Assembly (NCBI GenBank): GCA_041667145.1
Contig: JBAYFP010000001.1
Span: forward strand, 121,056-185,055
Reading direction: 5' to 3'
From: Minisyncoccota bacterium
Lineage (GTDB): Bacteria; Patescibacteriota; Minisyncoccia; Phycocordibacterales; UBA9973
DNA length: 64,000 bases
Of this stretch, positions 6,363 to 64,000 are shown one piece after another. Position numbers and translations under genes: made by a program. Under the pieces are notes generated by a model. That model saw only the letters and a program-made list of their open reading frames with translations, searched no databases and was not told the DNA's origin. Every line of letters begins with the position of its first letter. Position 1 is the first letter of the stretch.

Positions 6363-7136
6363 ATGAGCATTCTAGAAAATCTAGATAAAAATAATTTGCA
6401 CCATGCATATCTGATAGAAGGGGTTCGGGAAGAGATTGTGCCAGAGATTTTAGTACTTATGAAAAATCTTGGTATAGAAACTTCTAGCAATCCAGATTTT
6501 TGTCATATATCTGTAGATTCTTTTAAGATTGAAGATGCTCGTAATTTAAAATCAGTAGAATATGAAAAAGGTTTTTCAAATGGTAAAAAAATATTTTTAA
6601 TTTCTGCTAATAATTTTTTATTAGAAGCGCAAAATACATTACTTAAAATATTTGAAGAGCCGATAGAGAATACGCATTTCTTCTTGATTGTGCCAGATAA
6701 AAATATTTTACTTAAGACTTTAGTTTCTAGATTTTATTTGATTCCTACTAAACAAAATTTAGATGAAGGACTAAAAAAAGAAGCAGAGAAATTTATCAAA
6801 ATGCCTTTAAGAGATAGAATTGATTTTATTAAAGAATTATTAACAGAAGCAGAAGAAAATACGGAGGCCTTGCCTTCGCAAGGCGAAAGCAAGGCCTCCG
6901 CCAGATCCAAAGCATTGAAATTTTTAAATGCATTGGAAGCTATGTTGAATAGCAAATTTGTAAAGAATTTTTCCGGCTTAACCCTTCCCGGAGTACCGGG
7001 CGGGACCCACACCGTTCAAAATTCTTTACAAATTTGCTATCAACATATTTTTAAAGTTCGGGAGTTTTTAAATCAACCTGGTTCTTCGGTAAAGACTTTA
7101 ATGGAATCTGTGGCTTTGACTATTCCTAGTTTTTAA
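6363..7136 (+). CDS. holB: DNA polymerase III delta'-like clamp loader subunit
   Basis: HAYLIEG, NTLLKIFEEP...FFLI, SRF motifs resemble delta' (AAA+ without full Walker A). Carries two GC-rich in-frame palindromes. Confidence 0.55.
   Translation: MSILENLDKNNLHHAYLIEGVREEIVPEILVLMKNLGIETSSNPDFCHISVDSFKIEDARNLKSVEYEKGFSNGKKIFLISANNFLLEAQNTLLKIFEEPIENTHFFLIVPDKNILLKTLVSRFYLIPTKQNLDEGLKKEAEKFIKMPLRDRIDFIKELLTEAEENTEALPSQGESKASARSKALKFLNALEAMLNSKFVKNFSGLTLPGVPGGTHTVQNSLQICYQHIFKVREFLNQPGSSVKTLMESVALTIPSF
6862..6900. repeat. GC-rich nested palindrome inserted in-frame in holB-like gene
   Basis: cggaggccttgc-cttcgcaaggcgaaag-gcaaggcctccg: a perfect 12-bp inverted repeat around an inner palindrome, in a ~30% GC background. 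Confidence 0.7.
6983..7006. repeat. Second short GC-rich palindrome in holB-like gene (cccggagtaccggg)
   Basis: Read from sequence. Confidence 0.5.
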
Positions 7137-8900: not shown

Positions 8901-8957
8901 TCTCACCCCCAGCCCCTCTCCTTAATAAGGAGAGGGTGGCCGAAGGTCGGGTGAGGT
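8901..8957. repeat. Family-A palindromic repeat, intergenic (immediately after rseP stop)
   Basis: tctcacccccagcccctctccttaataaggagagggtggccgaaggtcgggtgagg. Confidence 0.8.
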
Positions 8958-9155
8958 GAATTTATGAAATCAGAAATCAAAACCTGTCAGAATTGCAAGA
9001 AAGACTTTACAATAGAGCCAGAAGATTTTAATTTTTATGAAAAAATAAATGTTCCTCCACCAACATTTTGCCCAGAATGCAGGATGGTGCGACGCCTTAC
9101 TTGAAGAAATGAGCGTTCTTTATTTCATGCGATATGTGATAGTTGTGGTAAAAAA

Positions 9156-10679
9156 ATGTTTTCTTCTTATTCATCAAAAAAAGATTATAAAATTTTCTGT
9201 AGAGAATGTTGGCTTTCAGATAATTTAGATCCTCTTTTATATGGACAAGACTATGATTTTTCCAAACCATTTTTTGAACAATTTAAAGAACTTTCAGAAA
9301 AAATACCCCATCTAAATCTTTTTCAGATTAATACAAAAAATTCTGATTATGCCAATGCAGTTAGAGATAGTAAAAATATCTATCTTTCATATTCTGTAGT
9401 AGATGGAGAAGACGTTTTTTATTCTAAAGACATTGATCGTTCTAGGCAAATTTATGATAGTATCACGACGACTGATTCTGAGAAATCAGCTTTTCTTGTT
9501 TATTGTGTAAATGATTACAATGTTATCTATTCAGTAATGACTATGGATTGTTTTGATTCTTCTTTTCTTTTTGATTGCCGAAATTGTTCTAATTGTTTTA
9601 TGTCTACTAATTTAAGGAACCAGCAATACGTATATAAGAATCATAAGTATAGCAAAGAAGAATATTTTTCTATAATTAATCAGATTGATACAGGTAGTCA
9701 CGAGGAGTTTAAAAAATTGGTGACAGAGTTTGAAGAAATGAAATGTAAGGCTATTCATAAGTATTCTCATGTTGGTAAATCCGTTATCAATTCTACGGGG
9801 GATGCTATAAGTAATACTAGAAATTCAAAAGAATGCTTTAACGCATATAACACAGAAAATGTGAAATGGGTTTATAGAGGTTTTGATTTAAAAGATTCCT
9901 ATGATTGCAATCATGGTGGGCTTATGTCTGAGCTAGTATATGAATTTATATCTGGAGGGAAAGAAGAATATAAGACATATTTTACTGCTTCTGCTATGAA
10001 TCCATTACGGGACACTTATTATACTGCTTGGTCTACAGGTTCAAAATTATTTGGTTGTTTTGGTATTAAAGGTGATAGTTATTGTATCTTAAATAAAAAA
10101 TATACCAAAGAAGAATATGAAGAATTAATACCAAAAGTAATTAAACATATGAATGATATGCCTTATGTGAATGATAAGGGAAGAGTGTATAGATTTGGTG
10201 AGTTCTTTCCTTTTGAACTTTCTCCTTATGCATACAATGAATCTGTCGCTCAAGAATTTTTTCCGTTATCATCTGAAGAGATAGTAAATAAAGGTTATAC
10301 ATATTATGAAAATGAAAAGAATAAATATGAAATTACTAAAAAGCCTGAAGACTTGCCAGATAATATATCTGAAGTTAATGAAGATATATTAAAAGAAGTC
10401 ATTGAATGTGAACATAAAGGAGAATGTTTGCATCAATGTACTACTGCTTTTAAAATACACCCTGAAGAGTTTTCTTTTTATCGTAATCACAAACTCCCAA
10501 TTCCACATTTATGTCCCAATTGTCGTTTTTATGAAAGATTAAAATATCGTAACCCTTGGAAACTTTGGCATAGAAAATGCATGAAGGAAGGGTGTACTAA
10601 TGAATTTGAGACTCCTTATGCTCCAGATAGACCTGAAACAATCTATTGTGAACGTTGTTATCAGCGTGAAGTATACTAG
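9156..10679 (+). CDS. Cys-rich multi-zinc-ribbon protein of unknown function (paralog of 62517..64000). Likely true start at 8964, with an in-frame TGA at 9102-9104.
   Basis: ORF-track ORF of 507 aa. Many CxxC pairs. C-terminal block HKGECLHQCT...LPIPHLCPNCRFYERLKYRNPWKLWHRKC...PDRPETIYCERCYQREV is shared with the gene at the other end of the window. Confidence 0.7.
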   Translation: MFSSYSSKKDYKIFCRECWLSDNLDPLLYGQDYDFSKPFFEQFKELSEKIPHLNLFQINTKNSDYANAVRDSKNIYLSYSVVDGEDVFYSKDIDRSRQIYDSITTTDSEKSAFLVYCVNDYNVIYSVMTMDCFDSSFLFDCRNCSNCFMSTNLRNQQYVYKNHKYSKEEYFSIINQIDTGSHEEFKKLVTEFEEMKCKAIHKYSHVGKSVINSTGDAISNTRNSKECFNAYNTENVKWVYRGFDLKDSYDCNHGGLMSELVYEFISGGKEEYKTYFTASAMNPLRDTYYTAWSTGSKLFGCFGIKGDSYCILNKKYTKEEYEELIPKVIKHMNDMPYVNDKGRVYRFGEFFPFELSPYAYNESVAQEFFPLSSEEIVNKGYTYYENEKNKYEITKKPEDLPDNISEVNEDILKEVIECEHKGECLHQCTTAFKIHPEEFSFYRNHKLPIPHLCPNCRFYERLKYRNPWKLWHRKCMKEGCTNEFETPYAPDRPETIYCERCYQREVY

Positions 10680-10762
10680 AGACGTTGGACATCTGGGAGT
10701 ACCCAGGTGTACAACGTCTGAGTTTCTTGACGTTGTACGTCTTCCTGAGACGTCCAACGTCT
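10679..10762. repeat. Family-C nested palindromic repeat (AGACGTTGGAC...GTCCAACGTCT), abutting the stop codon of the Cys-rich gene
   Basis: 84 bp; outer 11-bp inverted repeat plus inner GTACAACGTCTGAG / GACGTTGTAC palindromes; nearly identical copy in reverse orientation at 49434-49516. Confidence 0.85.
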
Positions 10763-10804
10763 AAATTAATTTTGCAAAGATATTTTATTTTATGCACATA
10801 GTCC

Positions 10805-14365: not shown

Positions 14366-14407
14366 TCACCTCACCCCGACCCTCTCCTTAACAAGGAGAG
14401 GGGGAAT
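14366..14407. repeat. Family-A palindromic repeat (shorter copy), intergenic after alr
   Basis: tcacctcaccccgaccctctccttaacaaggagagggggaatt. Confidence 0.7.
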
Positions 14408-18100: not shown

Positions 18101-21100
18101 TCTACTTCAATTGGTCCTGTAACATATACTGTTTCTTACTCAGGAGCAAATACTGTTTCACTTGCTAATGAGAATATAACTTTAATCAAAACAGGAACAG
18201 CTGATGGAACAGTCGCTGTTTCAGGTACTGGTATATCTTCTCGAACAGTGACTATTTCTTCTATCACTGGTACTGGCACTTTAGGAATTTCTATTGCTGC
18301 TGGTACTGCTTCTGATACTGCGGGAAATACTTCTCTAGCTATGGGAGCGTCTACTACTTTTGATGTAAGTAATGTTCCTTTAACAGTTGCAAGTATTTCT
18401 GTAGATTTAGCCTCAGGTTCATATAAATCTGGTCAAGCAATAATAACAACAGTAACTTTCTCTAAAGATGTTACATCGACTGGGAATGCAACTGTGACAT
18501 TTGATACGGGAGGGACATGTACTTTTACTATTAGTAATGCTTCATCAGGAAGTTGTACTTATACTGTCGGGGCTGGACAAAATTCTAGTGTTTTAGCTGT
18601 CTCGTCTGTTACGGGGACTATAAAAGATGCTGCCTTAAATTTATTGACTGCAACTACTCCTGTGATGAATATTTCTCCAACAAAAACAATTGTGATTGAT
18701 ACCACAGCACCAATTCTTTCCTTCACTGATGATGTAGCTGTTGGTCCTACATCTTCTGATACAATCACTGCTTCTTGGGTTGGTACTACTACTGGACAAA
18801 AAAAATGGATGTATGATACGGATAGAATTTGTTCACCTACTTCAACTGATTACACAATGACAGATAGTGATTCAATGGATCAAATTACAACCACAAACAA
18901 TACAAAATTTATTTGTTTGTATGGAGCAGATCTTGCTGGAAATTATTCAACACTAGCTTCAACAAATGATATAAATATTGATGCTAGTGGACCGACTGTC
19001 AGTATTTCTTCTCCCACTTCAAGCCCTACAAACGAAACAATAACTGTTAATGTTTTGTTTGATAAATCTGTTTCTGATTTTATTTATTCTGATATTTCAG
19101 TTACAAATGGTACAGTTTCATCTGCATCTTTTTCTGGCTCAGGAATGACTTATTCTTTTATAGTTACACCAACAGCTAATGGAGTAGTTGGTATAAGTAT
19201 TGGTTCAGGGGTGGCACATGATACAGCAGGAAATACAAACTCTGCTTCTAACTCTATATCCATAACATATAGTAATATAGGGCCGACAGTTATTTTAAGT
19301 TCCCCGTCACCTTATTATATTAATGGCTCATTCGATGTCGTTGCCACCTTTAGTGAACCTGTGACTGGGTTTACTTCAGCGGATATTACTATAAATGGTG
19401 GTATAGGTAATAGTTACGTAGACGGTTGGGCTGATGATGGTACAACGTATGAATTTTCTATTGTTCCAGATGGAGGAGGAATTGTTACTGTTGATATTAA
19501 TGGTGGAGTTGCTGTAAATGCAGCCCAAAATGGGAATATCGCTGCTACACAACTTTCTAGATTAAATGATACTGCTCCGCCTACTGCATATGATATCCCA
19601 ACAATTTGTTCTGTTGAAGGAAATTTATGTACTACCGCAGGTCAAAATGCCGATCCACAGGAAGTATATGATGTCGGTATGAGTACTATTTCTAGTACTG
19701 CCGAAGATGGTGATTCAGGAATAAGTAATGTTCAAATTTCAATTAATGATACTACTGCCAATAAATGGTATAACGGTACAATATTTACAACATCTGGTAG
19801 TGAAATATTATTAAATACAGTATTTGCATATTCAGAGAACGACGGGCAAACTCACTGGAGTTATGATTTTTCTAGCGTACCTTTAATTACTGGGGATACG
19901 TATACGATTAAAGTTACTGTTACAGATGGAGTATCTAATACAAATACTGCATCAGAATCTTTTAAATTTATAAATTCTGCACCAGAAGTTTCGAATGTAG
20001 TTCCATTGGAAGATGCGACTGGTTTAGTGACAGTGCATTATGATGTTACAGATAATGAATCTTCTCAAACTACGAATTATTTATTTTACAGTGTAGGAGG
20101 AAATGGTGTAGACGCAGGTTTAGCTAGTGACGCAACAAGTCTTAATTTATCTGACGCTACTTATTTCCCAAATTCAGGAATTATTCTTATAGATAATGAG
20201 ATGATTTCTTATACAAGTAAATCAGGAGCTACTCTTTTAGGTCTCACCAGAGGGATATTAAATACGATACCAGTTGCTCATGAAGATAGTGCTACTGTAT
20301 ATATAAAAGCAAGTTCAGCTACAGGTGGCGGAATTGGATTATCTGATGTTGGTACAAATAAGACTATAACTTGGCAAGCATCTTCTGATGCAAATGGATA
20401 TGAATATGATGTATCTTTTATTAAAGTTGTTGCAAATGATGGAGGAGTTGCCAATATGGTAGGTTCAGCAACTAACGAGGAAGGATTTATTCTTGATGCA
20501 AAAGCACCTACTGCAACAGTCACATTTGACGCTGGTGTCGGGGGAGAAACAAATAGTGGAGTAATTACTATTCCGATGCCTGAAGATATATCAGCTGTTG
20601 AGTATAAGATTACAGATGTAAATAATTTGTCAACAAATGCAGATTCTGGTGTTTGGAAATCTATAACGACTAGTACAACTTTACCTTGGACTTTTGATTC
20701 TAATATCATAGCAAGAAGTTTGAAATATCAGTTTAGAGATGCATACGGAAATATTGGATCTGAAATTACTACCTCTACCCAAGATCCGATTCCTACTAAG
20801 TTATTTACTGTCACTGATACATCGAATGTTTCATCAACACCTGCTTATCATCAAATGCATATGGATTGGCAGGCAGTGAGTTCTAGTGGGTTTTCTTCTT
20901 ATAAATTAGAATATAAAACATCTAGAAATAATATTAATTACATTGGTAATGGTTACACATCTATCTCTAGTACAGCTCTCAACAATGTTAGTACTGATAG
21001 TTATGATGATAAAAGTTTAACGCCAGATAATTTTTATAAATATCGTATAGGGATAATCGGTACTAATGGTAATGTTTCTATGAGATCAGATACTATTCTC

Positions 21101-24067
21101 GTTCGAGCAAATGGATTTCAGGATTATGATGAAGGTGGTGGAGGGACTGTTTTAAAAGCTCCAAAAGTAGAAAATGTTGTTCCGATTCAGGGATCAGATA
21201 AAAATGTGACAGTTAATTATCTTTTAACTGATACTTCATTATCAAAAAAGATTGATCTATTTTATGAAGGATATTTATTCTACAATATAGGAATTACATT
21301 ACCTGAAGATTCTTTTTCTGAATCTGAAGATACCTTAACACTTTCTGATACATCAAAATTAAAATCCTCTGGTTATATTTTAGTTAATAATGAAGTTATA
21401 AAATATACCTCTATAAGTGGAAATGTTTTAGAAGGTTTGACACGAGGTACTTGGCCTAATTTATCTACTTCTGGTAGAACGACTAGAACAAATTCTACTT
21501 TCTCTACAGGAGCTCCTGTTTGGATATTTGCAAATAATACTATCCCTATAGCTATAAATAGTAATTCCTCAATAATTTCTGGAGAAGCAGAATCAATAGT
21601 ATGGAATACAGAGGATGAAACAGGGTTAAAAGGTAATGTCTTTTCTAAAGTAGAATTCAAGGTATTAATTCATGACAATCAAACTTCTTCTCTAGGACCT
21701 ATATCCAGTCAGAATGATTCTTCCCAAGATGGAATTTTAAGTATTCTAGATCTTAGTGATACTGTTATTGAACCTACTGTCAAATCTACCAGTGCTGTTA
21801 TCACTTGGAATACTGATGATTATTCTGATTCTCTTATAGAATATGGAACGACTGAAGGTGTATATAATTTATCAAAAAGTAATTCAGATAGAGTTACGAG
21901 TCATCGTATTTATCTAAGTAATTTATTACCAAGTACGACTTATTTCTATAAAACAACTTCTACGAATGAATTGAGTGAAGCTATTACTTCTACGGGTCAA
22001 TTTACGACAAGTCCTAGTCCTGTGGTGACTAGTGTAAGTGTTCAAAGTGTGACTGATACAACTGCTGTAATAACATGGACCACAGCTGATGTTGTTTCAA
22101 GTTCTTATGTCGTATATTCGACTAATTCAGATTTAAGTGGCTCTATTACTGTCAATGATGATGAACTTGTGACAGATCACACAGTAACTTTAAGTGGACT
22201 TACACCAGAAAGGAATTATTATTTTAAAGTTTATTCTGTTGATGCTAATGAATATATTGGAGAAAAAACAGACAATCCTGATCCAGATACAAGTACTGAA
22301 GAAATATATTTTATGTTTACTACTGGATTAGATGAAACTGCTCCAATTATTTCTAATATTCAAATACCAATCATTACATATTCTGGAGTGGCAATAATAT
22401 GGACGACAAATGAGCAAGCCGATGGGCGGATAGGTTATAGTACAGAGAGCGTAGAAGATGGTGGGTCATACACTTATACTGATGTTGTCCCATTGTCTGG
22501 AGCATTAGTCACTAATCATGTCGCTACTATTGAAGATTTGAGGAAAACTACTAAATATTATTATGTAGTCGAATCTACAGATACACAGGGGAATACTGCT
22601 ACCTCTGATGAAGGGAATTTTACGACTGATAGACAACTAACAACTGGAGGGGGTAATGTTATAGGAGTTCTACAAGAGATCTATGATGCATTAATGAAAG
22701 AAAATGAAGAAAATAAGGCTAGATTAAAGAATCAGAGTTCTGATATTCCTGTTATATCAAATGTTGATATTGTAGATGTGAATGCCTTTGGAGCAACGAT
22801 CAGTTTCAATACAGATAAAGAAACTGTGGGGGGTGTCGATTATGGGAAAGATACAAAATATGGTAAAAATGAAGGTGATTTTATTTGGAGCACTACTCAT
22901 AAAATAGTTCTCAATGGTCTTACTATGGGTACTGATTATAATTTTAAGATAAAAGTTATCGATAGATATAGTAATATTGGTACTGGAGACAATCAGACTT
23001 TTAAAACGAAATTCTTAACTGAAAAACTCGCTGAACTTCAGAAGATAGAAAATATTGAGCAATTTCAAAAAGAAATAGAAGCCACAATTGAATCGATTTT
23101 GCCTTCGCTTGTGCCTCCTTTTATTGACCTACCGGCTATAACTAATATTACTGAAAATACTGCCACTATTACCTTCAAGACAAATATAAAAACATATCCA
23201 GTAGTAAATTATAGTTCCGATGCTACTTATGACATTACAAAAGAAAATCCATATGAAGGGGAAATAACGGATACAACTGAAAAAAGCTTAGACCATACGT
23301 TATCTCTTATTGGATTGAAACCTAATACAAAATATCACGTGATGGCGAAGGCGTACTCTCTTCCTCAAGTCATAGGTAAATCAGTAGATGTAACTTTTAC
23401 AACTAAACCATCGAAAATAAAAGCAACGATTACGGAACGTAAAAATGATTCGTTTACAATAGTATGGGTTACTGATGGCCCTACTTCTTCAATAGTAGAA
23501 TACAAAGATTTGAAAACAAATAAAACAGGAAGAATATCTGATGACGCAAAAAATACTTCACATTCTGTAAAAATAGAAAATCTTACCCCTGGTACCTCAT
23601 ACACGGTAGATGTTTCAGGATACAATGATATAGGCAATCTAGTAGAGGGATCTGAGACTCTAACAGTAAATACACTTACAGATACTGTTCCTCCGGTCAT
23701 CTCTAATTTTAAACTTGATAGTGCATTAGTATTAGGACGTACTGATAAGACTCAGACGATAGTATCATGGACTACAGATGAGCCATCCACCTCTATTGTT
23801 TATTATGAAGAAGGTTCTGGGTCACCTGATAAAGCACTTGCCAATAAACAAGAAAATAGCGAGCTATCAATAAACCATGTCATTATCTTGACTACATTAA
23901 GACCGGGTACAGTTTATAGATTCCAGATAGCTTCGAGAGACAATGCTAATAATATCAATACGCTTCCTATTCGAACCATCATCACACCAAGACCAAATGA
24001 ATCCATTGTTGACATAATCTTCAAGAATTTTGACGAGACGTTTAATTTCTTGAAAAATGTGCAGTAA
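15197..24067 (+). CDS. giant secreted/cell-surface protein (2956 aa): K-rich N-terminal extension plus hydrophobic signal/anchor, BNR/Asp-box beta-propeller, multiple Ig-like domains, at least six FN3-like domains
   Basis: Asp-box repeats (SSDYGVTW, TSDNGINW, SSDGIIW, STNSGDTW, SSDFGDTW, SPDGLHW) with YGNGxFVAV blades. Repeated TIDTTAPS / TVDNTAPT / IIDTAAPT / VIDTTAPI domain boundaries. FN3-like repeats (AVITWNTDDYSDSLIEYGTT..., TAVITWTTADVVSSSYVVYST..., VAIIWTTNEQADGRIGYST...). An alternative start at ATG 15401 gives a classical signal peptide. Confidence 0.8.
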   Translation: MKFTVFSRKKIPHKVGGFSRVIRLKIKLRFEKLRKKKFEESIVRIIKEKMLMRKEEIKKMIKIIKENIMPKKMINTKNILVSFFIFSFSFSFLYNPNQVLAVAPTVNITYSSNPVKAGTQRISVTYSSQPASTPTIGINQLGTTDIPNGTAMVPPYSDINAPGVTWSNPLSSNIGSAGGYWNSIAYGNDIFVAVSNYGSGNKVATSSDYGVTWIPRTPAESNNWESVTFGNGIFVAVSSNGNHRVMTSDNGINWFPQNVTEDYDWQSVTYDNDHGVFVAVADSGTHRAMTSSDGIIWEYKTTGSYSWNSVAYGNGVFVAVGNLGKIQKSTNSGDTWNDPQINSNSAYLYSVAYGNGVFVAVGASGTIRTSSDFGDTWQEQTSGTGLTISDVTFGNNTFVAVTNSSANLFLTSPDGLHWTSRTATAGATSIAYGTPTISGVETSMFVAVERTSSLGTNLITSTSRKLSFDAAHTYYYDYTVCAAGNSGTGACEGNYVDGTATVTLSDVKDLYGVSYTPSGTTFTIDTTESAPGTPDMTAGTDTGSSSTDNTTSDTTPDFTISCDTGATVTLYKDTTSSVGTGTCSSSTVTITSSTLSAGTYAMNAKQTDAAGNTSSASGNLSVTIDTTAPSVSTVTYSRSSIKQNDTLTITVNFNEALAITNPPQIAISGVNNLTATNMTEGYETCDRHPCAQVLSPSRWTYDFSIQSGNGSPTVTISAGQDAAGNIMTNASSPTSFSSFTVDNIAPTNQNTVFPTSISKKSSVTVTSPNIVSAGETGGSIWFAPSGTTTFTAGATMTTAGGTATTILAPLTAGSYKLFVRDAAGNTSLASTAILTVDNTAPTVALSYTSDPIKAGTQTITATYSKAITSIPNIRVDQYGTVPDDLLFHPMTNNDSGVNKVWKYDYTVHAATDSCPQGGTPPCYADGTAQVSLSSTTDVAGNTSGTPSSSTFIIDTAAPTNSISAPSVSSTSIGPVTYTVSYSGANTVSLANENITLIKTGTADGTVAVSGTGISSRTVTISSITGTGTLGISIAAGTASDTAGNTSLAMGASTTFDVSNVPLTVASISVDLASGSYKSGQAIITTVTFSKDVTSTGNATVTFDTGGTCTFTISNASSGSCTYTVGAGQNSSVLAVSSVTGTIKDAALNLLTATTPVMNISPTKTIVIDTTAPILSFTDDVAVGPTSSDTITASWVGTTTGQKKWMYDTDRICSPTSTDYTMTDSDSMDQITTTNNTKFICLYGADLAGNYSTLASTNDINIDASGPTVSISSPTSSPTNETITVNVLFDKSVSDFIYSDISVTNGTVSSASFSGSGMTYSFIVTPTANGVVGISIGSGVAHDTAGNTNSASNSISITYSNIGPTVILSSPSPYYINGSFDVVATFSEPVTGFTSADITINGGIGNSYVDGWADDGTTYEFSIVPDGGGIVTVDINGGVAVNAAQNGNIAATQLSRLNDTAPPTAYDIPTICSVEGNLCTTAGQNADPQEVYDVGMSTISSTAEDGDSGISNVQISINDTTANKWYNGTIFTTSGSEILLNTVFAYSENDGQTHWSYDFSSVPLITGDTYTIKVTVTDGVSNTNTASESFKFINSAPEVSNVVPLEDATGLVTVHYDVTDNESSQTTNYLFYSVGGNGVDAGLASDATSLNLSDATYFPNSGIILIDNEMISYTSKSGATLLGLTRGILNTIPVAHEDSATVYIKASSATGGGIGLSDVGTNKTITWQASSDANGYEYDVSFIKVVANDGGVANMVGSATNEEGFILDAKAPTATVTFDAGVGGETNSGVITIPMPEDISAVEYKITDVNNLSTNADSGVWKSITTSTTLPWTFDSNIIARSLKYQFRDAYGNIGSEITTSTQDPIPTKLFTVTDTSNVSSTPAYHQMHMDWQAVSSSGFSSYKLEYKTSRNNINYIGNGYTSISSTALNNVSTDSYDDKSLTPDNFYKYRIGIIGTNGNVSMRSDTILVRANGFQDYDEGGGGTVLKAPKVENVVPIQGSDKNVTVNYLLTDTSLSKKIDLFYEGYLFYNIGITLPEDSFSESEDTLTLSDTSKLKSSGYILVNNEVIKYTSISGNVLEGLTRGTWPNLSTSGRTTRTNSTFSTGAPVWIFANNTIPIAINSNSSIISGEAESIVWNTEDETGLKGNVFSKVEFKVLIHDNQTSSLGPISSQNDSSQDGILSILDLSDTVIEPTVKSTSAVITWNTDDYSDSLIEYGTTEGVYNLSKSNSDRVTSHRIYLSNLLPSTTYFYKTTSTNELSEAITSTGQFTTSPSPVVTSVSVQSVTDTTAVITWTTADVVSSSYVVYSTNSDLSGSITVNDDELVTDHTVTLSGLTPERNYYFKVYSVDANEYIGEKTDNPDPDTSTEEIYFMFTTGLDETAPIISNIQIPIITYSGVAIIWTTNEQADGRIGYSTESVEDGGSYTYTDVVPLSGALVTNHVATIEDLRKTTKYYYVVESTDTQGNTATSDEGNFTTDRQLTTGGGNVIGVLQEIYDALMKENEENKARLKNQSSDIPVISNVDIVDVNAFGATISFNTDKETVGGVDYGKDTKYGKNEGDFIWSTTHKIVLNGLTMGTDYNFKIKVIDRYSNIGTGDNQTFKTKFLTEKLAELQKIENIEQFQKEIEATIESILPSLVPPFIDLPAITNITENTATITFKTNIKTYPVVNYSSDATYDITKENPYEGEITDTTEKSLDHTLSLIGLKPNTKYHVMAKAYSLPQVIGKSVDVTFTTKPSKIKATITERKNDSFTIVWVTDGPTSSIVEYKDLKTNKTGRISDDAKNTSHSVKIENLTPGTSYTVDVSGYNDIGNLVEGSETLTVNTLTDTVPPVISNFKLDSALVLGRTDKTQTIVSWTTDEPSTSIVYYEEGSGSPDKALANKQENSELSINHVIILTTLRPGTVYRFQIASRDNANNINTLPIRTIITPRPNESIVDIIFKNFDETFNFLKNVQ

Positions 24068-32023: not shown

Positions 32024-34324
32024 TTATTTTATTTTATTTAGTTTGTCAGGACGATTATTGGGACATTTATTATTACTACATCTTTCAGGAATTGTTTTTG
32101 TACCTTCCATCATCAAGGAACCACATTTATCACAAATTTTACCTGTAGGTTTTGCTTTGATAGCAAATTTACAATCAGGATAATTTGAGCAGGAATAAAA
32201 TATGCCAAATCTTCCACGTCTTTCAGAGATATCTCCTTTTTTACATAGAGGACAAATCACACCAGTTCTTTTTCTCGCTTCTTCTGCCTCATCTTTCTTT
32301 ATGAATTTACACTTCGGATAACGTGAACAGGAGATAAAAGTACCTGTACCGTCACGTCTTTGTTTGATTATAAGTTTTCCACCACCAGATTTTCCCTTTT
32401 TTTCTCCACATTCTGGACACATTTCGCCAGTTTCCTTTGGGCCTTCAAGTTCTGTGCCGTCTAATCTTAATGCTCCATCGCAATCAGGATATTTAGAACA
32501 GGAATAAAATTTACCTCCACGGGAAAGCTTGATGATCATACTACTACCACATTTAGGACATTTAATATTTTCTGGTGCGTCACCTAAATTTGTTGCTTTT
32601 TCTAATTTTTCTTTTATTTTTACTTCTTTTGAAAAAGGACCATAAAAATCTTTAAGAGTTTTTTCATATTCACGTTCTCCTCTAGAAATTTGATCAAGTT
32701 CATCTTCCATCTCTGCGGTAAAAGTATCAGAAATATAATTTGCAAAGTTTTTTTCCAAGAAATCAGATACGACTTCACCGACGTCGGTGGGAAAGAGAGT
32801 CTTATTTTCCTTTCTTACATATTCTCTATCCTCCAAGGTTTTCATTATAGATGCGTAGGTGGAAGGTCGGCCTATGTCTCTTGATTCAAGTTCTTTAATC
32901 AATCCAGCTTCACTATATCTATTTGGTGGTTCAGTAAATTTTTCTTCTTTAATAAGATTTAATAATTTTAATTTTTCTCCTTCTTTTACTTCGGGTAATT
33001 CGATATCTTCTCCAACACTATCTTTATCTACTAGAAGCCAACCAGTAAATAAAATTCTTGAGCCAGTAGCAGAGAAATCAGGGAATTTGAACTCCTGAGA
33101 CGTTGGACGTCTGGATTCTGTATCGGCTTCCAGACGTCCAACGTCTGGGGTTATGTTTGCACTTATTTTCGTCTTTAATAATTTTGCATCAGACATTTGT
33201 GAAGATACTGTACGTTCCCAAATTAATCTATAAAGTCTTTGCTGCTCCTCTGTCCCAGCTTGAAGATTTTCTATATGGGTAGGACGAATAGCCTCATGTG
33301 CCTCCTGAGCATTTTTTGATTTAGTTTTATAAATTCTAGCTTGTGCATACTTACTACCATATTTTTTTTCTACAAGAGAAACTATTTGAGCTTGAGCGAC
33401 AGCAGATAAATTTGTACTATCTGTTCGCATATATGTGATGTGTCCTGCTTCGTATAGTTTCTGCGCTATTTGCATAGTTCTTGAAGGGGAGTAGCCAAGT
33501 CGTGAGCTTGCTGTTTGTTGTAATGTAGAAGTAGTGAAAGGTGCACGAGGAACTCTTTTTTGTTCTGATTCTTTTACTTCTTTCACTATCCAATCTTCTT
33601 TTTTACCCAATTCGAGAATTTTTTCAACTAATTTTTCATCTCTTGGTTCTTCTACACAAACAAGAGTAATTTTTTCCCCTCCTGCCTGAGGAGGGGTGCC
33701 TTTTAAGGCGGGGTGGTGGGAGGTTTCAAAAAGTCCTAAAAGTTTCCAATATTTTTCAGGAATAAATGCACGAATTTCTCGTTCACGTTCCATTATGATA
33801 CGAAGCGCAGGGGATTGAACTCTTCCAGCTGAAAGTCCATAACGTACTTTTTTCCAAATAAGACCTGAAAGATCATATCCTACGAGTCTATCGAGTACTC
33901 GTCTTGCTTCTTGGGCTTTTCTTAGGTTTGTATCTATATCACGAGGGTGCTTTAAAGCTTCTTCCACAGCGTCTTTAGTAATTTCATAAAAAACTACCCT
34001 TTTTATAGGGGCTTTTATTCTTTTGCTTTTCTTTAATAATTCTTCAATATGCCAAGCGATAGCTTCTCCTTCACGATCAGGGTCTGTTGCTAAAAGTATT
34101 TCATTTGCTTTTTCTCCGAGAGATTGAAGTTCATGGACAACTTTTTCTTTACCTTTAGAAATTTCGTAATGTGGTATAAATCCACCTTCTATATCGATAG
34201 CTATTTTATTTGATTTTGGTAAATCACGAATATGTCCAATAGAAGCACGTACTGTGTACGCACCTTCTAAATATTTTTCAATAGTCTTTGCTTTTGATGG
34301 TGATTCTACAATTAAAAGTTTCAT
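32024..34324 (-). CDS. topA: DNA topoisomerase I with C-terminal zinc ribbons
   Basis: TOPRIM N-terminus LLIVESPSKAKTI, active-site region, 3-4 C4 zinc ribbons. Contains two in-frame GC-rich palindromic insertions. Confidence 0.9.
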   Translation of the reverse strand: MKLLIVESPSKAKTIEKYLEGAYTVRASIGHIRDLPKSNKIAIDIEGGFIPHYEISKGKEKVVHELQSLGEKANEILLATDPDREGEAIAWHIEELLKKSKRIKAPIKRVVFYEITKDAVEEALKHPRDIDTNLRKAQEARRVLDRLVGYDLSGLIWKKVRYGLSAGRVQSPALRIIMEREREIRAFIPEKYWKLLGLFETSHHPALKGTPPQAGGEKITLVCVEEPRDEKLVEKILELGKKEDWIVKEVKESEQKRVPRAPFTTSTLQQTASSRLGYSPSRTMQIAQKLYEAGHITYMRTDSTNLSAVAQAQIVSLVEKKYGSKYAQARIYKTKSKNAQEAHEAIRPTHIENLQAGTEEQQRLYRLIWERTVSSQMSDAKLLKTKISANITPDVGRLEADTESRRPTSQEFKFPDFSATGSRILFTGWLLVDKDSVGEDIELPEVKEGEKLKLLNLIKEEKFTEPPNRYSEAGLIKELESRDIGRPSTYASIMKTLEDREYVRKENKTLFPTDVGEVVSDFLEKNFANYISDTFTAEMEDELDQISRGEREYEKTLKDFYGPFSKEVKIKEKLEKATNLGDAPENIKCPKCGSSMIIKLSRGGKFYSCSKYPDCDGALRLDGTELEGPKETGEMCPECGEKKGKSGGGKLIIKQRRDGTGTFISCSRYPKCKFIKKDEAEEARKRTGVICPLCKKGDISERRGRFGIFYSCSNYPDCKFAIKAKPTGKICDKCGSLMMEGTKTIPERCSNNKCPNNRPDKLNKIK
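33096..33148. repeat. Family-C palindromic repeat inserted in-frame in topA (encodes DVGRLEADTESRRPTSQ)
   Basis: cctgagacgttggacgtctgg-attctgtatcggctt-ccagacgtccaacgtctgg: 17-bp perfect inverted repeat. Confidence 0.85.
33681..33703. repeat. Short GC-rich palindrome cccctcctgcctgaggagggg in-frame in topA (encodes ...TPPQAGGE...)
   Basis: Read from sequence. Confidence 0.6.
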
Positions 34325-48976: not shown

Positions 48977-49366
48977 ATGGTTATGAAACTCTCGGAACTG
49001 TTATCAATGTTTGGCATAATTTGTGGTGTAAATATAATAATTAGTTTAGAAAAAATATTTTCCTCAAACTCAATTCAACAAGCGTATAATGAGTTGGCAT
49101 TGGCTATTGTCTTCTCATTAATATTCATTGCATTTCTTTCTGTAAGTGGCATTGTTGTACACCTGGGAAAGGATCTAAAAATATTAAAAATAAAAAGGAG
49201 TACAAGGTTGTTAACTTGTGGGATTTTTTCTCTCATAGGAATAGTAATTGTTCCTTATTTCTATATATACTCCTCACCGTTTCTCATTATAAATATAACA
49301 ATACTCACAATAATAAGTGCAGACAACTTTTCTAAGGCAAAAAAAGAATTAGATGTCTCATCGTAA
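48977..49366 (+). CDS. hypothetical membrane protein
   Basis: Four predicted hydrophobic helices. Confidence 0.35.
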   Translation: MVMKLSELLSMFGIICGVNIIISLEKIFSSNSIQQAYNELALAIVFSLIFIAFLSVSGIVVHLGKDLKILKIKRSTRLLTCGIFSLIGIVIVPYFYIYSSPFLIINITILTIISADNFSKAKKELDVSS

Positions 49367-49433: not shown

Positions 49434-49516
49434 AGACGTTGGACGTCTCAGGAAGACGTACAACGTCAAGAAACTCAGACGTTGTACACCTGGGTACTCC
49501 CTGATGTCCAACGTCT
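49434..49516. repeat. Family-C nested palindromic repeat, intergenic; near-identical reverse complement of 10679-10762
   Basis: agacgttggacgtctcaggaagacgtacaacgtcaagaaactcagacgttgtacacctgggtactccctgatgtccaacgtct. Confidence 0.85.
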
Positions 49517-61378: not shown

Positions 61379-62431
61379 CTAACGACTAATGATAGCTAAA
61401 ATTATTCCTATAATAGAAAAAGCTACAGAAAAAATCCAAAAACGCATCGTCACTTTATAAGACGGCCAACCAAGTGCTTCGAAATGATGATGAATAGGAG
61501 AAAGCTTAAATATTTTCTTTCCACCTCTAAACTTTTTTGAAAACATTTGCAAAATAACAGAACCAGAGGAAACAACGAGAGGCATAGCAACAATGGGTAA
61601 AATCAAAACAGTGTCAGTCAAGAATGCGAGAGTTGCTAGTGTAATAGTGAGCCCTATTATCCCCGTCTCCCCCATATAAAATCTTGCCGGCGGAATATTA
61701 AACCATAAGAACGCTAAAATAGCTCCTGTGGTAACTGCTGAAAATGTAGCTATGTCTATTTGATTATTAGTAAACGCAATCACAGAATATGCAGCAAAAA
61801 TAGAAGCCAATACTCCTCCAGAAAGCCCATCGATTCCATCTATTACTCCTCCTGAAAAAGTTGCAAGTGCTACTATAATAAAAAATGGAATAATTAAGAT
61901 ACCTAAATATAATTCTCCATTAAATGGTATATGAATAGCCACCATCCCAAGTTTATAATAAAACCAAAGTCCGATTAAAAATGAAATAATAATTACCAGT
62001 AATGCTTTCCACATACGCCAAGATTTATCATCATAAGCTATTTTCCCTTTTCCATATATTTGTACTAAATCATCCCAAAGCCCAAGGAATGATCCAAAAA
62101 GTAAAACTAGAAGCGGAATCAAGGTCTGATTTTTACTTAAGAAATTTATCTTCTCAGTCACTTCTCCAGGGAAAAATATTGATATTAAATAAAAAATTAA
62201 GGTAGAAAGAATTATAGATACCCATATAATAATCCCTCCAACACGAGGAGTTCTCAATTCTTCTTCCCCATTGTGAATTTTTTGAAAATCTTTACAAGTA
62301 ACTTCACTACGCGAAGATTTCCTCCACATCTTATATTTATAGAAAAAATGTGTTGCAAGTGGTGTAATAAAAAGCCCTATAAGCAGAGCCGTCATCATCG
62401 GTAGAAAAATCTTAACCATATTCAAAAGCAT
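61379..62431 (-). CDS. mraY: phospho-N-acetylmuramoyl-pentapeptide transferase
   Basis: GLWDDL and IDGIDGLSGG MraY motifs; 10 TM helices. Confidence 0.85.
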   Translation of the reverse strand: MLLNMVKIFLPMMTALLIGLFITPLATHFFYKYKMWRKSSRSEVTCKDFQKIHNGEEELRTPRVGGIIIWVSIILSTLIFYLISIFFPGEVTEKINFLSKNQTLIPLLVLLFGSFLGLWDDLVQIYGKGKIAYDDKSWRMWKALLVIIISFLIGLWFYYKLGMVAIHIPFNGELYLGILIIPFFIIVALATFSGGVIDGIDGLSGGVLASIFAAYSVIAFTNNQIDIATFSAVTTGAILAFLWFNIPPARFYMGETGIIGLTITLATLAFLTDTVLILPIVAMPLVVSSGSVILQMFSKKFRGGKKIFKLSPIHHHFEALGWPSYKVTMRFWIFSVAFSIIGIILAIISR

Positions 62432-62472
62432 ATGTAGATTATATCAAATATAATGGATTTTTCCCAGACCTA

Positions 62473-62513
62473 CCTAGACGTTGTACGTCTTCCTGAGACG
62501 TCCAACGTCTAGG
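62473..62513. repeat. Family-C palindromic repeat (short copy), abutting the 3' end of the second Cys-rich paralog
   Basis: cctagacgttgtacgtcttcctgagacgtccaacgtctagg matches the 3' half of the 10679-10762 copy. Confidence 0.8.
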
Positions 62514-62516
62514 TAT

Positions 62517-64000
62517 CTATGATACTTCTGCTTGATAACACTCTTTACAATAAATAATTTCTGGTCTATCTGGGGAATACGAGGTCTTAAATTCAACAGC
62601 ACATTCACCATTACCATGGGAATGAACTGCTGTATTTTCATACAACCCATTTCTTGATTTGTTACCAATACAATCACATTTACGACTCCATAACTGCACC
62701 GGATTACGTTCTTCTAATCTTATATGATAACGACAATTAGGACAAAATCTTGGAAGTGGTAAATTCATTTGTTTATAAAATTGAATTTCTTTAGGAATTA
62801 TTCTGAATACTTCAGTACATTGATGATTACATTCTCCTTTATGCCCACATTCAATAACATCCTCAGTTATAGTTTCTTCTACCTCATTAATATGATCAGG
62901 CAAATCCGCTGTATATTTTGTGATTTTATAATTTCTTGTTTCAGAGTCTTTCCAAGAATAACCTTTTTTTACAGCATCTTCTTTGTGAAGTGGAAAATGA
63001 TCCTGAGCTATACTTTCATTATAAGCAAAAGGAGAAATTTCGGGTGGAAAAAATTCACCATATTTATAAATACGTCCCTTTTTATCTTTAAACGGTAATG
63101 CATCCATCTGTTCAATAATCTTAGATTTCAAAATCTCATATTCTTCTTTTGAGTAACTCTTGTTTAAAATGCAATATTTTTTATCCTTTAAACAAACTGA
63201 CCCAAAAATATCTGAAGAAGATACACATAAATCCGAATAAGTGACATTATTTGTATACCAACAGGTAGTAGAAAAAAGTTTAAGAAAATTTTGTTCAATA
63301 TTTGCACTTTCATATATCAGTTCAGCATTATCAGCAAAATTAAAATCGTGACTATCCTTTACGTTCGAACAAAAATATGCATATTTTAGATTCTCCGAAT
63401 TTCTTACATAAAAACTATTATGGCAATTCCTTGTTTCAAACAACTCGTTACCGTCTGAATTTATACAAAGGACATTGTTGGCAAAACGATGTGGTACTCT
63501 AGTGTATAGATCTAAGAAATTTTCCTTGAGTTTTTTTAATTCAGGATAAGAACCAATTTTTTCTTTAAGAGAAACAAATTCTTCTTTAGATATTTTTTTA
63601 TTAAGCAAAAAATTACTTTTATTAAAAAGATTAATACATCCTAAACATTCTAATACATTTTTACAATTTTTTATGTATACACTATCTATCGAATTCATAG
63701 AGTTATCAGCAAAACCAACCCTATAATTTTTTGTACCTTGATTGGTTTCATAACAAAATTCTGAATCAACTACTCCAAAACAATCAAAAGACTCTTTAGT
63801 ACGAAAAGTGCGATCACAATATGCACAATTTTCACAGGTATCTGAACAATTGACTAAATAACAATTCTTATGATTAGCAGAATAATTCACATAAGGTGAA
63901 TTTACATTATTATTACCTATTAATGCTGGCCTAGGGACTGTTTCTAAAAGTTTTTTAAATTGTGAAAAAAATGGTACAGAAAAATCAAAATCTAAACCAT
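62517..64000 (-). CDS. Cys-rich multi-zinc-ribbon protein, paralog of 9156..10679; 5' end runs off the window
   Basis: Upstream of the track start (GTG at 63888-63890) the frame stays open to base 64000, and its translation (...LDFDFSVPFFSQFKKLLETVP...) aligns with QDYDFSKPFFEQFKELSEKIP of the first paralog. C-terminal PDRPEIIYCKECYQAEV matches PDRPETIYCERCYQREV. Confidence 0.7.
   Translation of the reverse strand, partial: GLDFDFSVPFFSQFKKLLETVPRPALIGNNNVNSPYVNYSANHKNCYLVNCSDTCENCAYCDRTFRTKESFDCFGVVDSEFCYETNQGTKNYRVGFADNSMNSIDSVYIKNCKNVLECLGCINLFNKSNFLLNKKISKEEFVSLKEKIGSYPELKKLKENFLDLYTRVPHRFANNVLCINSDGNELFETRNCHNSFYVRNSENLKYAYFCSNVKDSHDFNFADNAELIYESANIEQNFLKLFSTTCWYTNNVTYSDLCVSSSDIFGSVCLKDKKYCILNKSYSKEEYEILKSKIIEQMDALPFKDKKGRIYKYGEFFPPEISPFAYNESIAQDHFPLHKEDAVKKGYSWKDSETRNYKITKYTADLPDHINEVEETITEDVIECGHKGECNHQCTEVFRIIPKEIQFYKQMNLPLPRFCPNCRYHIRLEERNPVQLWSRKCDCIGNKSRNGLYENTAVHSHGNGECAVEFKTSYSPDRPEIIYCKECYQAEVS

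What the first reader, a model, noticed from the sequence alone, without database searches (positions are those of the whole stretch)
62473..64000. Two paralogous Cys-rich multi-zinc-ribbon genes at opposite ends of the window, each followed by a family-C repeat
The 507-aa ORF at 9156-10679 and the gene at 62517-64000 (minus strand, runs off the window) are clear paralogs. Examples are EEYEELIPKVIKHMNDMPYVNDKGRVYRFGEFFPFELSPYAYNESVAQEFFPL versus EEYEILKSKIIEQMDALPFKDKKGRIYKYGEFFPPEISPFAYNESIAQDHFPL, and the C-terminal CPNCR...RNP..LW.RKC...PDRPE.IYC..CYQ.EV block. They contain more than 10 CxxC pairs and match no family I can name. In both cases a family-C repeat starts within 0-4 nt of the stop codon. 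The gene-plus-repeat unit may therefore be a duplicated or mobile module, or the repeat may serve as their shared terminator or regulatory element.
Basis: seen in the sequence. Interest (0 to 1): 0.6.

Follow-up and report, generated by a model that had tools for sequence, protein, structure and literature searches.

The report
Ancient paralogs beside mobile hairpin repeats
Two old, strongly diverged copies of a large, unstudied zinc-binding protein family of ultra-small (Patescibacteria) bacteria each happen to be followed by a short mobile hairpin repeat, but the repeat also lands elsewhere, even in frame inside essential genes, so gene and repeat are not one unit.

Summary
The genes at 8964-10679 (+) and 62517-64000 (-) are paralogs (40% identity, E 1e-120), and each stop codon is followed within 0-5 nt by the same GC-rich palindrome. 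They are not a duplicated or mobile gene-plus-repeat module.

- **The paralogs are old.** Each has 78-79% orthologs in other Paceibacteria, and those orthologs lack the repeat.
- **The family is large and uncharacterised.** It has about 5,300 clusters at 50% identity, is seen almost only in Patescibacteria and has no Pfam, NCBIfam or PDB assignment. It often forms tandem arrays of up to 7 copies.
- **Architecture:** double zinc module, two homologous predicted beta-solenoid halves, a conserved middle domain, then a second double zinc module.
- **Recurrent neighbour:** a soluble VirD4/TraG-like ATPase in 24 of 80 loci.
- **The repeat is independent of the gene.** It lies in opposite orientation relative to the two genes. 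It also occurs after an unrelated ORF and in frame inside topA.
- **The repeat is mobile.** The same palindrome type occurs in many low-GC, Patescibacteria-like metagenome contigs, at gene 3' ends or in frame in housekeeping genes as DVGR...RPTS. This resembles Rickettsia palindromic elements.

Protein function remains inferred. Paralog 1 carries an in-frame TGA at a conserved Trp codon.

The parts
62517..64000 (-). Paralog 2, cut by the window edge. It covers residues 92-584 of the 584-aa protein P0121 (NCBI WCS86_00995). Stop codon at 62517-62519.
   Evidence: Translation; 100% match to P0121; tblastn.
62471..62515 (.). Single family-C palindrome (arms 62471-62490/62496-62515, 95% complementary, 5-nt loop). 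It lies between the stop of paralog 2 and the mraY start at 62431.
   Evidence: RNA fold -35.3 kcal/mol for 62440-62530, z -6.25; no U-tract.
8964..10679 (+). Paralog 1 at full extent: 571 codons including an in-frame TGA at codon 47. NCBI annotates only 9156-10679 (P0001, WCS86_00740, 507 aa).
   Evidence: P0002 (78% identical) aligns over residues 1-570 with 8964-10676.
9102..9104 (+). In-frame TGA at the position of a conserved Trp (RRxxW-RNER) of the N-terminal zinc module.
   Evidence: The genome uses TGA as a stop in 4 of 37 long ORFs, and its tRNA-Trp has anticodon CCA.
10680..10763 (.). 84-nt double family-C element (hairpin C1 10680-10719, spacer, hairpin C2 10728-10762). It starts directly after the stop codon of paralog 1.
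   Evidence: fold -47.2 kcal/mol, z -7.2.
49434..49516 (.). Second copy of the 84-nt double element, in inverted orientation and differing at 1 nt. It lies 66 nt after an unrelated 129-aa membrane-like ORF (48977-49366).
33098..33146 (-). Family-C palindrome (18-bp perfect arms) lying in frame inside topA (32024-34324, minus strand). It encodes DVGRLEADTESRRPTS, which is an insertion relative to E. coli TopA.
8907..8936. Other copies start at 85, 2553 and 14373.
61379..62431 (-). mraY, the gene downstream of paralog 2, followed by ftsW, murG and gltX on the same strand. Neighbourhood only, not part of a conserved unit.
   Evidence: Pfam. This context is not conserved in orthologues.

Best explanation
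Two separate things lie next to each other here.

(1) The genes. They are anciently diverged paralogs of a very large, uncharacterised family seen almost only in Patescibacteria, mainly Paceibacteria/Parcubacteria-type genomes. The proteins are soluble, cytoplasmic and about 570-600 aa long.
- Architecture: an N-terminal double zinc module (a treble-clef-like CxxC...CPxCR with a basic helix, then a second CxxC...CxxC ribbon), two homologous predicted beta-solenoid halves, a highly conserved middle domain (GEFFPxExSPFxYNE[ST]xAQ), and a C-terminal copy of the double zinc module.
- Genomes usually hold several copies, often in tandem arrays, and their positions change quickly between relatives.
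- Paralog 1 has a TGG-to-TGA change in its first zinc module. It is therefore truncated, split or read through.

(2) The 'family-C repeat'. It is a short (35-50 nt) GC-rich palindromic element with core GACGTTGKAC...GTMCAACGTC, of the REP/RPE kind, and it spreads independently of these genes.
- It lands at gene 3' ends. There the stable stem-loop most plausibly acts as a transcript-end or stability hairpin between transcription units.
- It also lands in frame inside coding sequence, where it is tolerated as a DVGR-x(4-8)-RPTS loop.
- Its presence after both paralogs reflects this 3'-end habit, not co-duplication.

Inferred function of the proteins (low confidence, about 0.25): zinc-stabilised binding or adaptor proteins. 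Their variable solenoid surfaces would give paralog-specific targets, and they would work with the orphan VirD4/TraG-like ATPases that neighbour them in about 30% of loci.

Shown: paralogy, family size and distribution, architecture, tandem arrays, the ATPase neighbourhood, and the repeat's independence and mobility. Inferred: zinc binding, the hairpin's RNA role, and the ATPase partnership.
For: Genes:
- The two proteins are 40% identical. Closer orthologues exist elsewhere: 78%, 77% and 73% for paralog 1, and 79% and 66% for paralog 2.
- 5,290 clusters at 50% identity reach E<=1e-3, and 2,260 reach E<=1e-30.
- Nearly all of the 80 loci kept from GTDB species are labelled Patescibacteria, Paceibacteria or CPR candidate phyla; a few MAGs carry Gammaproteobacteria, Burkholderiales or Bacteroidales labels.
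- Those 80 loci hold 173 family genes; 48 loci have at least 2 copies and one has 7. Tandem arrays are also seen in L001-L003, L214 and L215.
- hhalign: N module against C module E 3e-18; solenoid half 1 against half 2 E 1e-35.
- Weak zf_Tbcl matches occur in 28 of 66 members and zf_Tbcl_2 in 12 of 66.
- No hydrophobic segment is present.
- The VirD4/TraG/DUF87-like ATPase is in 24 of 80 loci, and about 16 of its 30 copies are directly adjacent and co-directional. PMC12102498 reports 5,713 VirD4-like homologues in Patescibacteria, of which only 148 lie near virB4.

Repeat:
- It has 4 loci in the window.
- Its orientation is opposite relative to the two genes, and the 84-nt unit is duplicated at 49.4 kb with 1 mismatch.
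- It is inserted in frame in topA.
- The same palindrome type is found at 60 sites in low-GC metagenome contigs. 23 lie inside long ORFs and 15 lie within 40 nt after a stop.
- 14 of the 16 intragenic copies checked read DVGR...; hosts include TopA, PurH, GatB, PBP2, a Mur ligase, DnaG, PurL and an ATP synthase subunit.
- Among 120 close TopA orthologues, 41 have the shortest, insert-free form of the site, as in L213; others carry family-C or other palindromes. DNA-level checks confirm this.
Against: - Within the window, 2 of the 3 intergenic family-C loci abut the only two family genes. If 3' ends were hit uniformly among about 55 genes, the chance would be about 0.002 (my estimate, post hoc).
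- One metagenome contig (L022) also has this hairpin 8-11 nt after a family gene's stop. A weak preference or functional link is therefore not excluded.
- The rest of the 203-kb contig could not be retrieved, so genome-wide copy numbers of gene and repeat are unknown.
- No transposase for the element was identified.
- The solenoid parts of the model have only pLDDT 55-63.
- The family's own zinc-module HMMs do not significantly detect the zinc finger of the ATPase.
- No biochemical function is demonstrated.
Confidence: 0.8

Rival explanations
1. Gene plus repeat is one duplicated or mobile module. The hairpin travels with the gene, or marks the end of a transposed cassette.
For: Both paralogs are followed within 0-5 nt by the same repeat family. 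Family genes do change position often between relatives.
Against: - The proteins are 40% identical with no DNA-level repeat, while the hairpins are 97-99% identical.
- The hairpin orientation relative to the gene is opposite in the two cases, and it is double in one and single in the other.
- 73-79% orthologues lack it.
- The motif is in only 1 of 80 family loci and is not adjacent there.
- The repeat also occurs away from family genes.
Confidence: 0.03
2. The hairpin is a cis-regulatory element specific to this gene family, for example a terminator/attenuator or an RNA/DNA site bound by the zinc-finger proteins themselves (autoregulation).
For: Two of the three intergenic copies in the window abut the two paralogs. 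L022 shows the same arrangement in another organism. The proteins carry basic zinc modules that could bind nucleic acid.
Against: - The motif is absent from 79 of 80 family loci.
- Family genes have no excess of 3' hairpins: 13.5% against 16.8% of controls at MFE <= -20.
- The hairpin is common inside unrelated housekeeping ORFs and after unrelated genes.
- It has no U-tract.
Confidence: 0.07
3. The proteins are cell-envelope enzymes, such as left-handed beta-helix acyltransferase-like proteins, tied to peptidoglycan synthesis. This would explain their positions next to ddl/alr and mraY-ftsW-murG.
Against: - The neighbourhood is not conserved. Orthologues sit next to macB, smc, ribosomal genes, grpE/dnaK, alaS or other family copies.
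- No hexapeptide-repeat or any enzyme Pfam match was found in 66 members.
- The best fold match is a non-enzymatic solenoid (CsgA), and this region of the model has low confidence.
Confidence: 0.05

Closest known systems
zf_Tbcl / zf_Tbcl_2 (Pfam PF13451, PF23477) and TIGR04272 'CxxC-x17-CxxC' probable treble-clef zinc fingers
   Same: The terminal modules have a CxxC knuckle, a spacer of about 24 residues carrying F-I-x3-[DE]-x2-FY, then CPxCR opening a basic helix. 28 of 66 and 12 of 66 family members give weak hits to these models, and one source names a member this way.
   Different: Both window proteins stay below every cutoff. The known models describe a domain of about 37 aa with no known function. 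They do not cover the 580-aa architecture with duplicated solenoid halves and the conserved middle domain.
Beta-solenoid proteins (curli CsgA 8c50, phi29 gp12 3gq7, ice-binding proteins, LpxA/LpxD/GlmU left-handed beta-helices)
   Different: Sequence identity is only 2-9%, there are no hexapeptide or curlin repeat signatures, pLDDT in this part is only 55-63, and zinc modules cap both ends.
Rickettsia palindromic elements (RPE; in-frame selfish palindromes in protein-coding genes; background knowledge, and mentioned in PMC10969869 found)
   Same: Both are multi-copy palindromic elements found in intergenic DNA and in frame inside essential genes. Presence or absence is polymorphic at the same site among close relatives.
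   Different: The element here is much shorter (35-50 nt, against roughly 100-150 bp for RPEs). It occurs in a different phylum and has a fixed reading as DVGR...RPTS. Several unrelated palindromes share one TopA site.
REP / BIME / REPIN elements of Proteobacteria (PMC3116915, PMC3337134 listed)
   Same: Both are short GC-rich imperfect palindromes at gene 3' ends, occurring singly or as composite pairs. Their likely roles are mRNA 3'-end stabilisation or termination.
   Different: No RAYT transposase was identified here. The composite at 10680-10763 is two different hairpins in tandem rather than an inverted REP pair. Intragenic in-frame copies are common.
Orphan VirD4-like T4CP ATPases of Patescibacteria (PMC12102498)
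   Same: The recurrent neighbour of the family matches TrwB_AAD_bind, T4SS-DNA_transf, TraG-D_C and DUF87. Like the published orphan homologues, it is not next to virB4.
   Different: This is the neighbour, not the family itself. None lies in this window. A physical or functional link is inferred from gene adjacency only.

Membership tests
zf_Tbcl / CxxC-x17-CxxC zinc-finger domain | Two CxxC pairs separated by about 17-25 residues | tested here: met
   P0121 has C6/C9 and C34/C37, and C56/C59 and C77/C80. The C module has C510/C513 and C575/C578.
zf_Tbcl / CxxC-x17-CxxC zinc-finger domain | Score above the curated Pfam/NCBIfam threshold | tested here: not met
   Neither window protein gives a Pfam hit. 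TIGR04272 scores 9.4 bits against a cutoff of 36. Among relatives there are only weak hits, with best E 1e-4 to 1e-5.
Intrinsic (Rho-independent) terminator | GC-rich stem-loop | tested here: met
   Stems are 16-20 bp. MFE is -35 to -47 kcal/mol for the regions, with z <= -6.
Intrinsic (Rho-independent) terminator | U-tract directly after the stem | tested here: not met
   The scan finds no terminator-like site at 62471-62515. At 10704-10762 it finds only partial matches on sub-stems, with tails AGTTTCTTGA and AAATTAATTT.
REP/REPIN-type extragenic palindromes | Short imperfect palindrome, multi-copy, in intergenic DNA at gene ends | tested here: met
   6 hairpins at 4 loci in 64 kb, and 3 of the loci lie just 3' of ORFs. 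15 metagenome copies lie within 40 nt after a stop.
REP/REPIN-type extragenic palindromes | Cognate RAYT (Y1 transposase) in the genome | not tested
   Only 64 kb of the genome was available. No transposase appeared among the roughly 30 window ORFs scanned. The rest of the contig could not be fetched.
RPE-like in-frame palindromic insertions | Element lies in frame within an otherwise intact conserved gene | tested here: met
   In topA, codons 394-409 are an insertion relative to E. coli TopA. 23 metagenome copies lie inside long ORFs, and 14 of the 16 checked read DVGR....
RPE-like in-frame palindromic insertions | Presence or absence is polymorphic at the same site among close relatives | tested here: met
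   41 of 120 TopA orthologues (78-87% identical) have the shortest, insert-free form of the site, 5 carry DVGR..RPTS, and others carry different palindromes. DNA checks in L211, L212 and L213 confirm this.
Duplicated/mobile gene-plus-repeat cassette | Gene copies similar at DNA level, with the repeat in fixed orientation and spacing | tested here: not met
   40% protein identity and no DNA repeat between the genes. The orientation is opposite, and the element is double in one case and single in the other.
Duplicated/mobile gene-plus-repeat cassette | Other copies and orthologues carry the repeat | tested here: not met
   L004 has a different hairpin and L006 has none. The motif is in 1 of 80 loci and is not adjacent there. 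There is no 3' hairpin enrichment. L022 is the single exception.
Left-handed beta-helix acyltransferases | Hexapeptide repeat signature and catalytic context | tested here: not met

The most novel reading that the evidence does not exclude
The Cys-rich solenoid family is the client, adaptor or effector repertoire of the orphan VirD4-like coupling ATPases of Paceibacteria. The conserved zinc modules and middle domain would dock to the ATPase. The fast-evolving solenoid surfaces of the tandem paralogs would recognise different targets, possibly host-cell or foreign nucleic-acid/protein targets of these episymbionts. If so, this would be a lineage-specific system with no described counterpart, and one of the largest unannotated gene families of the phylum would gain a role.
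Probability: 0.15. Interest if true: 0.75.

Novelty: new variant of a known kind. Interest (0 to 1): 0.5.

Why it matters
- The protein family is abundant (thousands of clusters, several copies per roughly 1-Mb genome, arrays of up to seven) yet has no name, fold assignment or literature. Its architecture and its recurrent VirD4-like ATPase neighbour give a concrete, testable lead for Patescibacteria biology.
- The repeat shows that small, streamlined Patescibacteria genomes carry mobile palindromic elements. These elements write short peptides into essential proteins such as TopA, GatB, PurH and DnaG, as RPEs do in Rickettsia. I found no description of this in the searched literature.
- This matters for gene annotation, for interpreting 'CPR-specific insertions' in proteins, and for understanding genome dynamics in reduced genomes.
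- For the scan itself, the lesson is that finding a repeat next to both paralogs did not mean they form a module.

Tried and rejected
- **Family libraries.** Pfam, NCBIfam, PADLOC, PHROGs and PDB sequence searches on the proteins gave nothing significant.
- **Fetching the source contig.** Looking up P0001 and P0121 found nothing on record, so no genome-wide census was possible.
- **Rfam.** Only three tRNAs matched in the window, and no family matched the hairpins.
- **Viral contig scan for the hairpin.** It gave 5 matches, which I did not examine further.
- **Recoding.** I considered code 4/25 or a UGA-reading tRNA to explain the in-frame TGA. I rejected this because TGA ends 4 of 37 long ORFs and tRNA-Trp has anticodon CCA.
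- **Inversion or excision between hairpin copies.** I considered recombination between the two 84-nt double hairpins as the route that moved paralog 1 from the macB-PBP locus, where its 73% orthologue sits in L004. The orientations do not fit a simple model, and other orthologues have yet other contexts.
- **Shared zinc domain with the ATPase.** The family's N/C-module HMMs do not significantly hit the ATPase's zf_Tbcl_2 domain.
- **Literature.** Searches found no description of this family or of palindromic elements in CPR.
Full report
**Observation**

The ORF at 9156-10679 (+) and the reading frame 62517-63998 (-) are clear paralogs. BLASTP gives 351 bits, 40% identity over 497 residues and E 1e-120. 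tblastn finds no third copy in the window.

Each stop codon is followed almost at once by the same GC-rich palindrome.
- After paralog 1 (stop 10677-10679) there is an 84-nt unit of two hairpins at 10680-10763.
- After paralog 2 (stop 62517-62519) there is a single hairpin with arms 62471-62490/62496-62515.

The core AGACGTTGKAC occurs 13 times in the window against 0.72 expected. The hairpin regions fold far better than shuffles, with z between -6 and -9.

Two corrections apply.
- **Gene start.** Paralog 1 starts at ATG 8964. An in-frame TGA at 9102-9104 sits exactly where homologues have a conserved Trp, and this made the ORF look like 507 aa.
- **CxxC count.** The full proteins have 8 and 9 CxxC motifs, not more than 10.

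The genome uses the standard code. TGA ends 4 of 37 long ORFs, and tRNA-Trp has anticodon CCA. The TGA is therefore a nonsense change, a readthrough site or an assembly variant.

**Source and family**

Both proteins are 100% matches to 'hypothetical proteins' of a Candidatus Paceibacterota MAG: WCS86_00740 and WCS86_00995, the latter 584 aa in full.
- Each paralog has much closer relatives in other organisms than it has in its partner: 78%, 77% and 73% for paralog 1, and 79% and 66% for paralog 2. The duplication is therefore old.
- A profile of 66 members finds 5,290 clusters at 50% identity with E<=1e-3, and 2,260 with E<=1e-30, among 1.84 billion proteins.
- A scan of one genome per GTDB species found more than 557 encoding stretches. 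Nearly all of the 80 loci kept are labelled Patescibacteria, Paceibacteria or Parcubacteria-type candidate phyla. A few MAGs are labelled Gammaproteobacteria, Burkholderiales or Bacteroidales.
- In those 80 loci (match plus or minus 6 kb) there are 173 family genes. 48 loci hold at least 2 copies and one holds 7. Tandem arrays also appear in L001-L003, L214 and L215.
- No library names the family. Pfam, NCBIfam, PADLOC, PHROGs and PDB sequence searches give nothing for the window proteins. Across 66 members, only weak zf_Tbcl (28 of 66) and zf_Tbcl_2 (12 of 66) hits appear.

**Architecture**

An AlphaFold2 model of the full paralog 2 protein has pLDDT 82 and pTM 0.84. It shows these parts:

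| Residues | Part | Notes |
|---|---|---|
| 1-95 | N-terminal double zinc module | |
| about 100-225 and 260-370 | Two beta-strand-rich solenoid halves | Separated by a helical hairpin; partly pLDDT 55-63 |
| 375-470 | Middle domain | Confidently modelled; the most conserved part |
| 475-584 | C-terminal double zinc module | |

- Profile-profile comparison shows both internal duplications. N module against C module gives E 3e-18, and solenoid half 1 against half 2 gives E 1e-35.
- No member has a hydrophobic segment. The proteins are therefore soluble and presumably cytoplasmic, which suits zinc sites.

**Gene neighbourhood**

In the window, paralog 1 lies between rseP and a ddl-ddl fusion plus alr. 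Paralog 2 lies upstream of mraY-ftsW-murG. This peptidoglycan context is not conserved. Orthologues sit after macB (L004), before smc (L006), in arrays next to truB, rplI or grpE/dnaK, or before alaS.

I clustered all ORFs of the 80 species loci. One recurrent neighbour stands out: a soluble P-loop ATPase matching TrwB_AAD_bind, T4SS-DNA_transf, TraG-D_C and DUF87, sometimes with a zf_Tbcl_2 finger.
- It is present in 24 of 80 loci.
- It is directly adjacent and co-directional for about 16 of its 30 copies.
- With roughly two such genes per genome, chance would give only a few percent of loci (my estimate).
- A published survey found 5,713 VirD4-like homologues in 2,918 Patescibacteria genomes, of which only 148 lie near virB4 (PMC12102498). 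The neighbour belongs to this 'orphan' class.
- DnaK and DnaJ recur in 8 loci each.
- No such ATPase lies in this window.

**The repeat is not tied to the gene**

- The window has four family-C loci. Besides the two after the paralogs, a near-identical (1 mismatch) inverted copy of the 84-nt double unit lies at 49434-49516, 66 nt after an unrelated 129-aa membrane-like ORF. A single hairpin lies inside topA at 33098-33146.
- Relative to gene direction, the shared hairpin is in opposite orientation after paralog 1 and after paralog 2.
- The 73% orthologue of paralog 1 is followed by a different hairpin. The 79% orthologue of paralog 2 has none, and its next gene starts 20 nt later.
- Only 1 of the 80 species loci contains the motif, and it is not adjacent to the gene there.
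- The 70 nt after 170 family genes fold no better than those after 734 other ORFs in the same loci. MFE <= -20 kcal/mol is reached by 13.5% against 16.8%.
- Neither hairpin has a U-tract.

**What the repeat is**

Even so, 60 sites on low-GC contigs share the extended palindrome GACGTTGGACGTCYG...CRGACGTCCAACGTC.
- 23 of them lie inside long ORFs, and 15 lie within 40 nt after a stop.
- 14 of the 16 intragenic copies checked are read in the same frame, as DVGR-x(4-8)-RPTS. The host genes are housekeeping genes: topA (at the same site as in the window), purH twice, gatB twice (same site), a PBP2 gene, a Mur ligase gene, dnaG, purL and an ATP synthase subunit gene.
- In the window's TopA, the element adds 14 residues relative to E. 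coli TopA.
- Among 120 TopA orthologues that are 78-87% identical, 41 have the shortest, insert-free form of that loop, as in L213. Five carry DVGR..RPTS, and many carry other inserts.
- At DNA level those other inserts are different perfect palindromes (L211, L212; empty site in L213). Some translate like the window's other repeat family (PLLNKEG...).

These are therefore mobile palindromic elements of the REP/RPE kind. They settle at gene 3' ends and, in frame, in tolerant loops of essential proteins. Literature searches found no description of this in CPR bacteria.

**Residual doubt**

In this window, two of the three intergenic family-C loci abut the only two family genes. That has roughly a 0.002 chance under uniform placement at 3' ends (my post hoc estimate). 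One metagenome contig (L022) repeats the arrangement. A mild insertion preference or a local functional link cannot be excluded without the rest of the genome, which could not be fetched.

A second coincidence also remains unexplained. The inverted sister copy of the 84-nt unit lies at the syntenic macB-PBP2 spot, where a relative (L004) carries the orthologue of paralog 1. Simple inversion or excision models do not fit the orientations.

**Mechanism and verdict**

The best-supported reading is this.
- The genes are old paralogs of a large, unnamed Patescibacteria family of zinc-module-capped beta-solenoid proteins.
- The hairpins are independent mobile palindromes. At 3' ends they most plausibly act as generic RNA-end or stability stem-loops between transcription units.
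- The function of the proteins is inferred only. The basic zinc modules, the variable solenoid, the tandem diversification and the VirD4-like neighbour together suggest binding or adaptor proteins working with that ATPase.
- The 'mobile gene-plus-repeat module' idea is not supported.

The proteins and the element are each a new variant of a known kind: zinc-finger/solenoid proteins, and REP/RPE-type elements. The in-frame palindromes and the ATPase link are the most interesting leads.

Noticed in passing
window 9102-9104: In-frame TGA in paralog 1 at the codon where homologues have a conserved Trp. NCBI therefore annotates a 507-aa ORF starting at 9156. The rest of the gene is intact and 78% identical to P0002. 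The genome uses the standard code and its tRNA-Trp has anticodon CCA.
   Followed up: partly
window 33098-33146 (inside topA, 32024-34324, minus strand): A family-C palindrome lies in frame inside topA and encodes DVGRLEADTESRRPTS. Among 120 close TopA orthologues this site has the shortest, insert-free form in 41. In others it is occupied by family-C or by other, unrelated perfect palindromes. It looks like an insertion hot spot.
   Followed up: yes
loci L016, L019, L041, L075, L078, L081, L100, L104, L107, L116 (metagenome contigs): The same palindrome type sits in frame, read as DVGR-x(4-8)-RPTS, in housekeeping genes of many low-GC (Patescibacteria-like) contigs. Hosts are TopA, PurH, GatB, PBP2, a Mur ligase, DnaG, PurL and an ATP synthase subunit. 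This is RPE-like behaviour, and I found no description of it for this phylum.
   Followed up: partly
window 6862-6900 (inside ORF 6363-7136, a DNA pol III delta'-like protein): Another GC-rich near-perfect palindrome (CGGAGGCCTTGCCTTCGC/GCGAAAGCAAGGCCTCCG) lies inside a coding region. It resembles the palindrome found at the TopA site of L211.
   Followed up: no
window 85-114, 2553-2582, 8907-8936, 14373-14402: A separate palindromic repeat family (CCCC..CCCTCTCCTTAATAAGGAGAGGG) with four copies; the two checked (8907, 14373) lie just after gene ends. One copy sits between rseP and paralog 1. Some TopA orthologues carry an in-frame insert that translates like this repeat (PLLNKEG...).
   Followed up: partly
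window 49434-49516 and locus L004: The inverted, near-identical copy of the 84-nt double hairpin lies between macB and the PBP2/CtpB block. In a Nomurabacteria relative (L004) that same spot holds the 73% orthologue of paralog 1. The relation between this and the present position of paralog 1 is unexplained.
   Followed up: partly
loci L126-L205 (e.g. L176 4514-5983, L187 4156-5994, L166 3895-5898): A soluble VirD4/TraG/DUF87-like ATPase, sometimes with a zf_Tbcl_2 finger, neighbours the Cys-rich family in 24 of 80 species loci and is often directly adjacent and co-directional. dnaK and dnaJ recur in 8 loci each.
   Followed up: partly
window 62438-62446 (minus strand), upstream of mraY (start 62431): An extended -10-like TGATATAAT lies only 6 nt before the mraY ATG, right after the hairpin. 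This suggests a separate, possibly leaderless, mraY transcript.
   Followed up: no
window 15197-24067: A 2,956-aa ORF contains direct repeats spaced mostly 120-129 nt apart (repeat finder families D1, D2, D4, D9).
   Followed up: no
window 10856-13222: A 788-aa ORF has two D-Ala-D-Ala ligase units fused in tandem. It is followed by alanine racemase (13224-14363).
   Followed up: no
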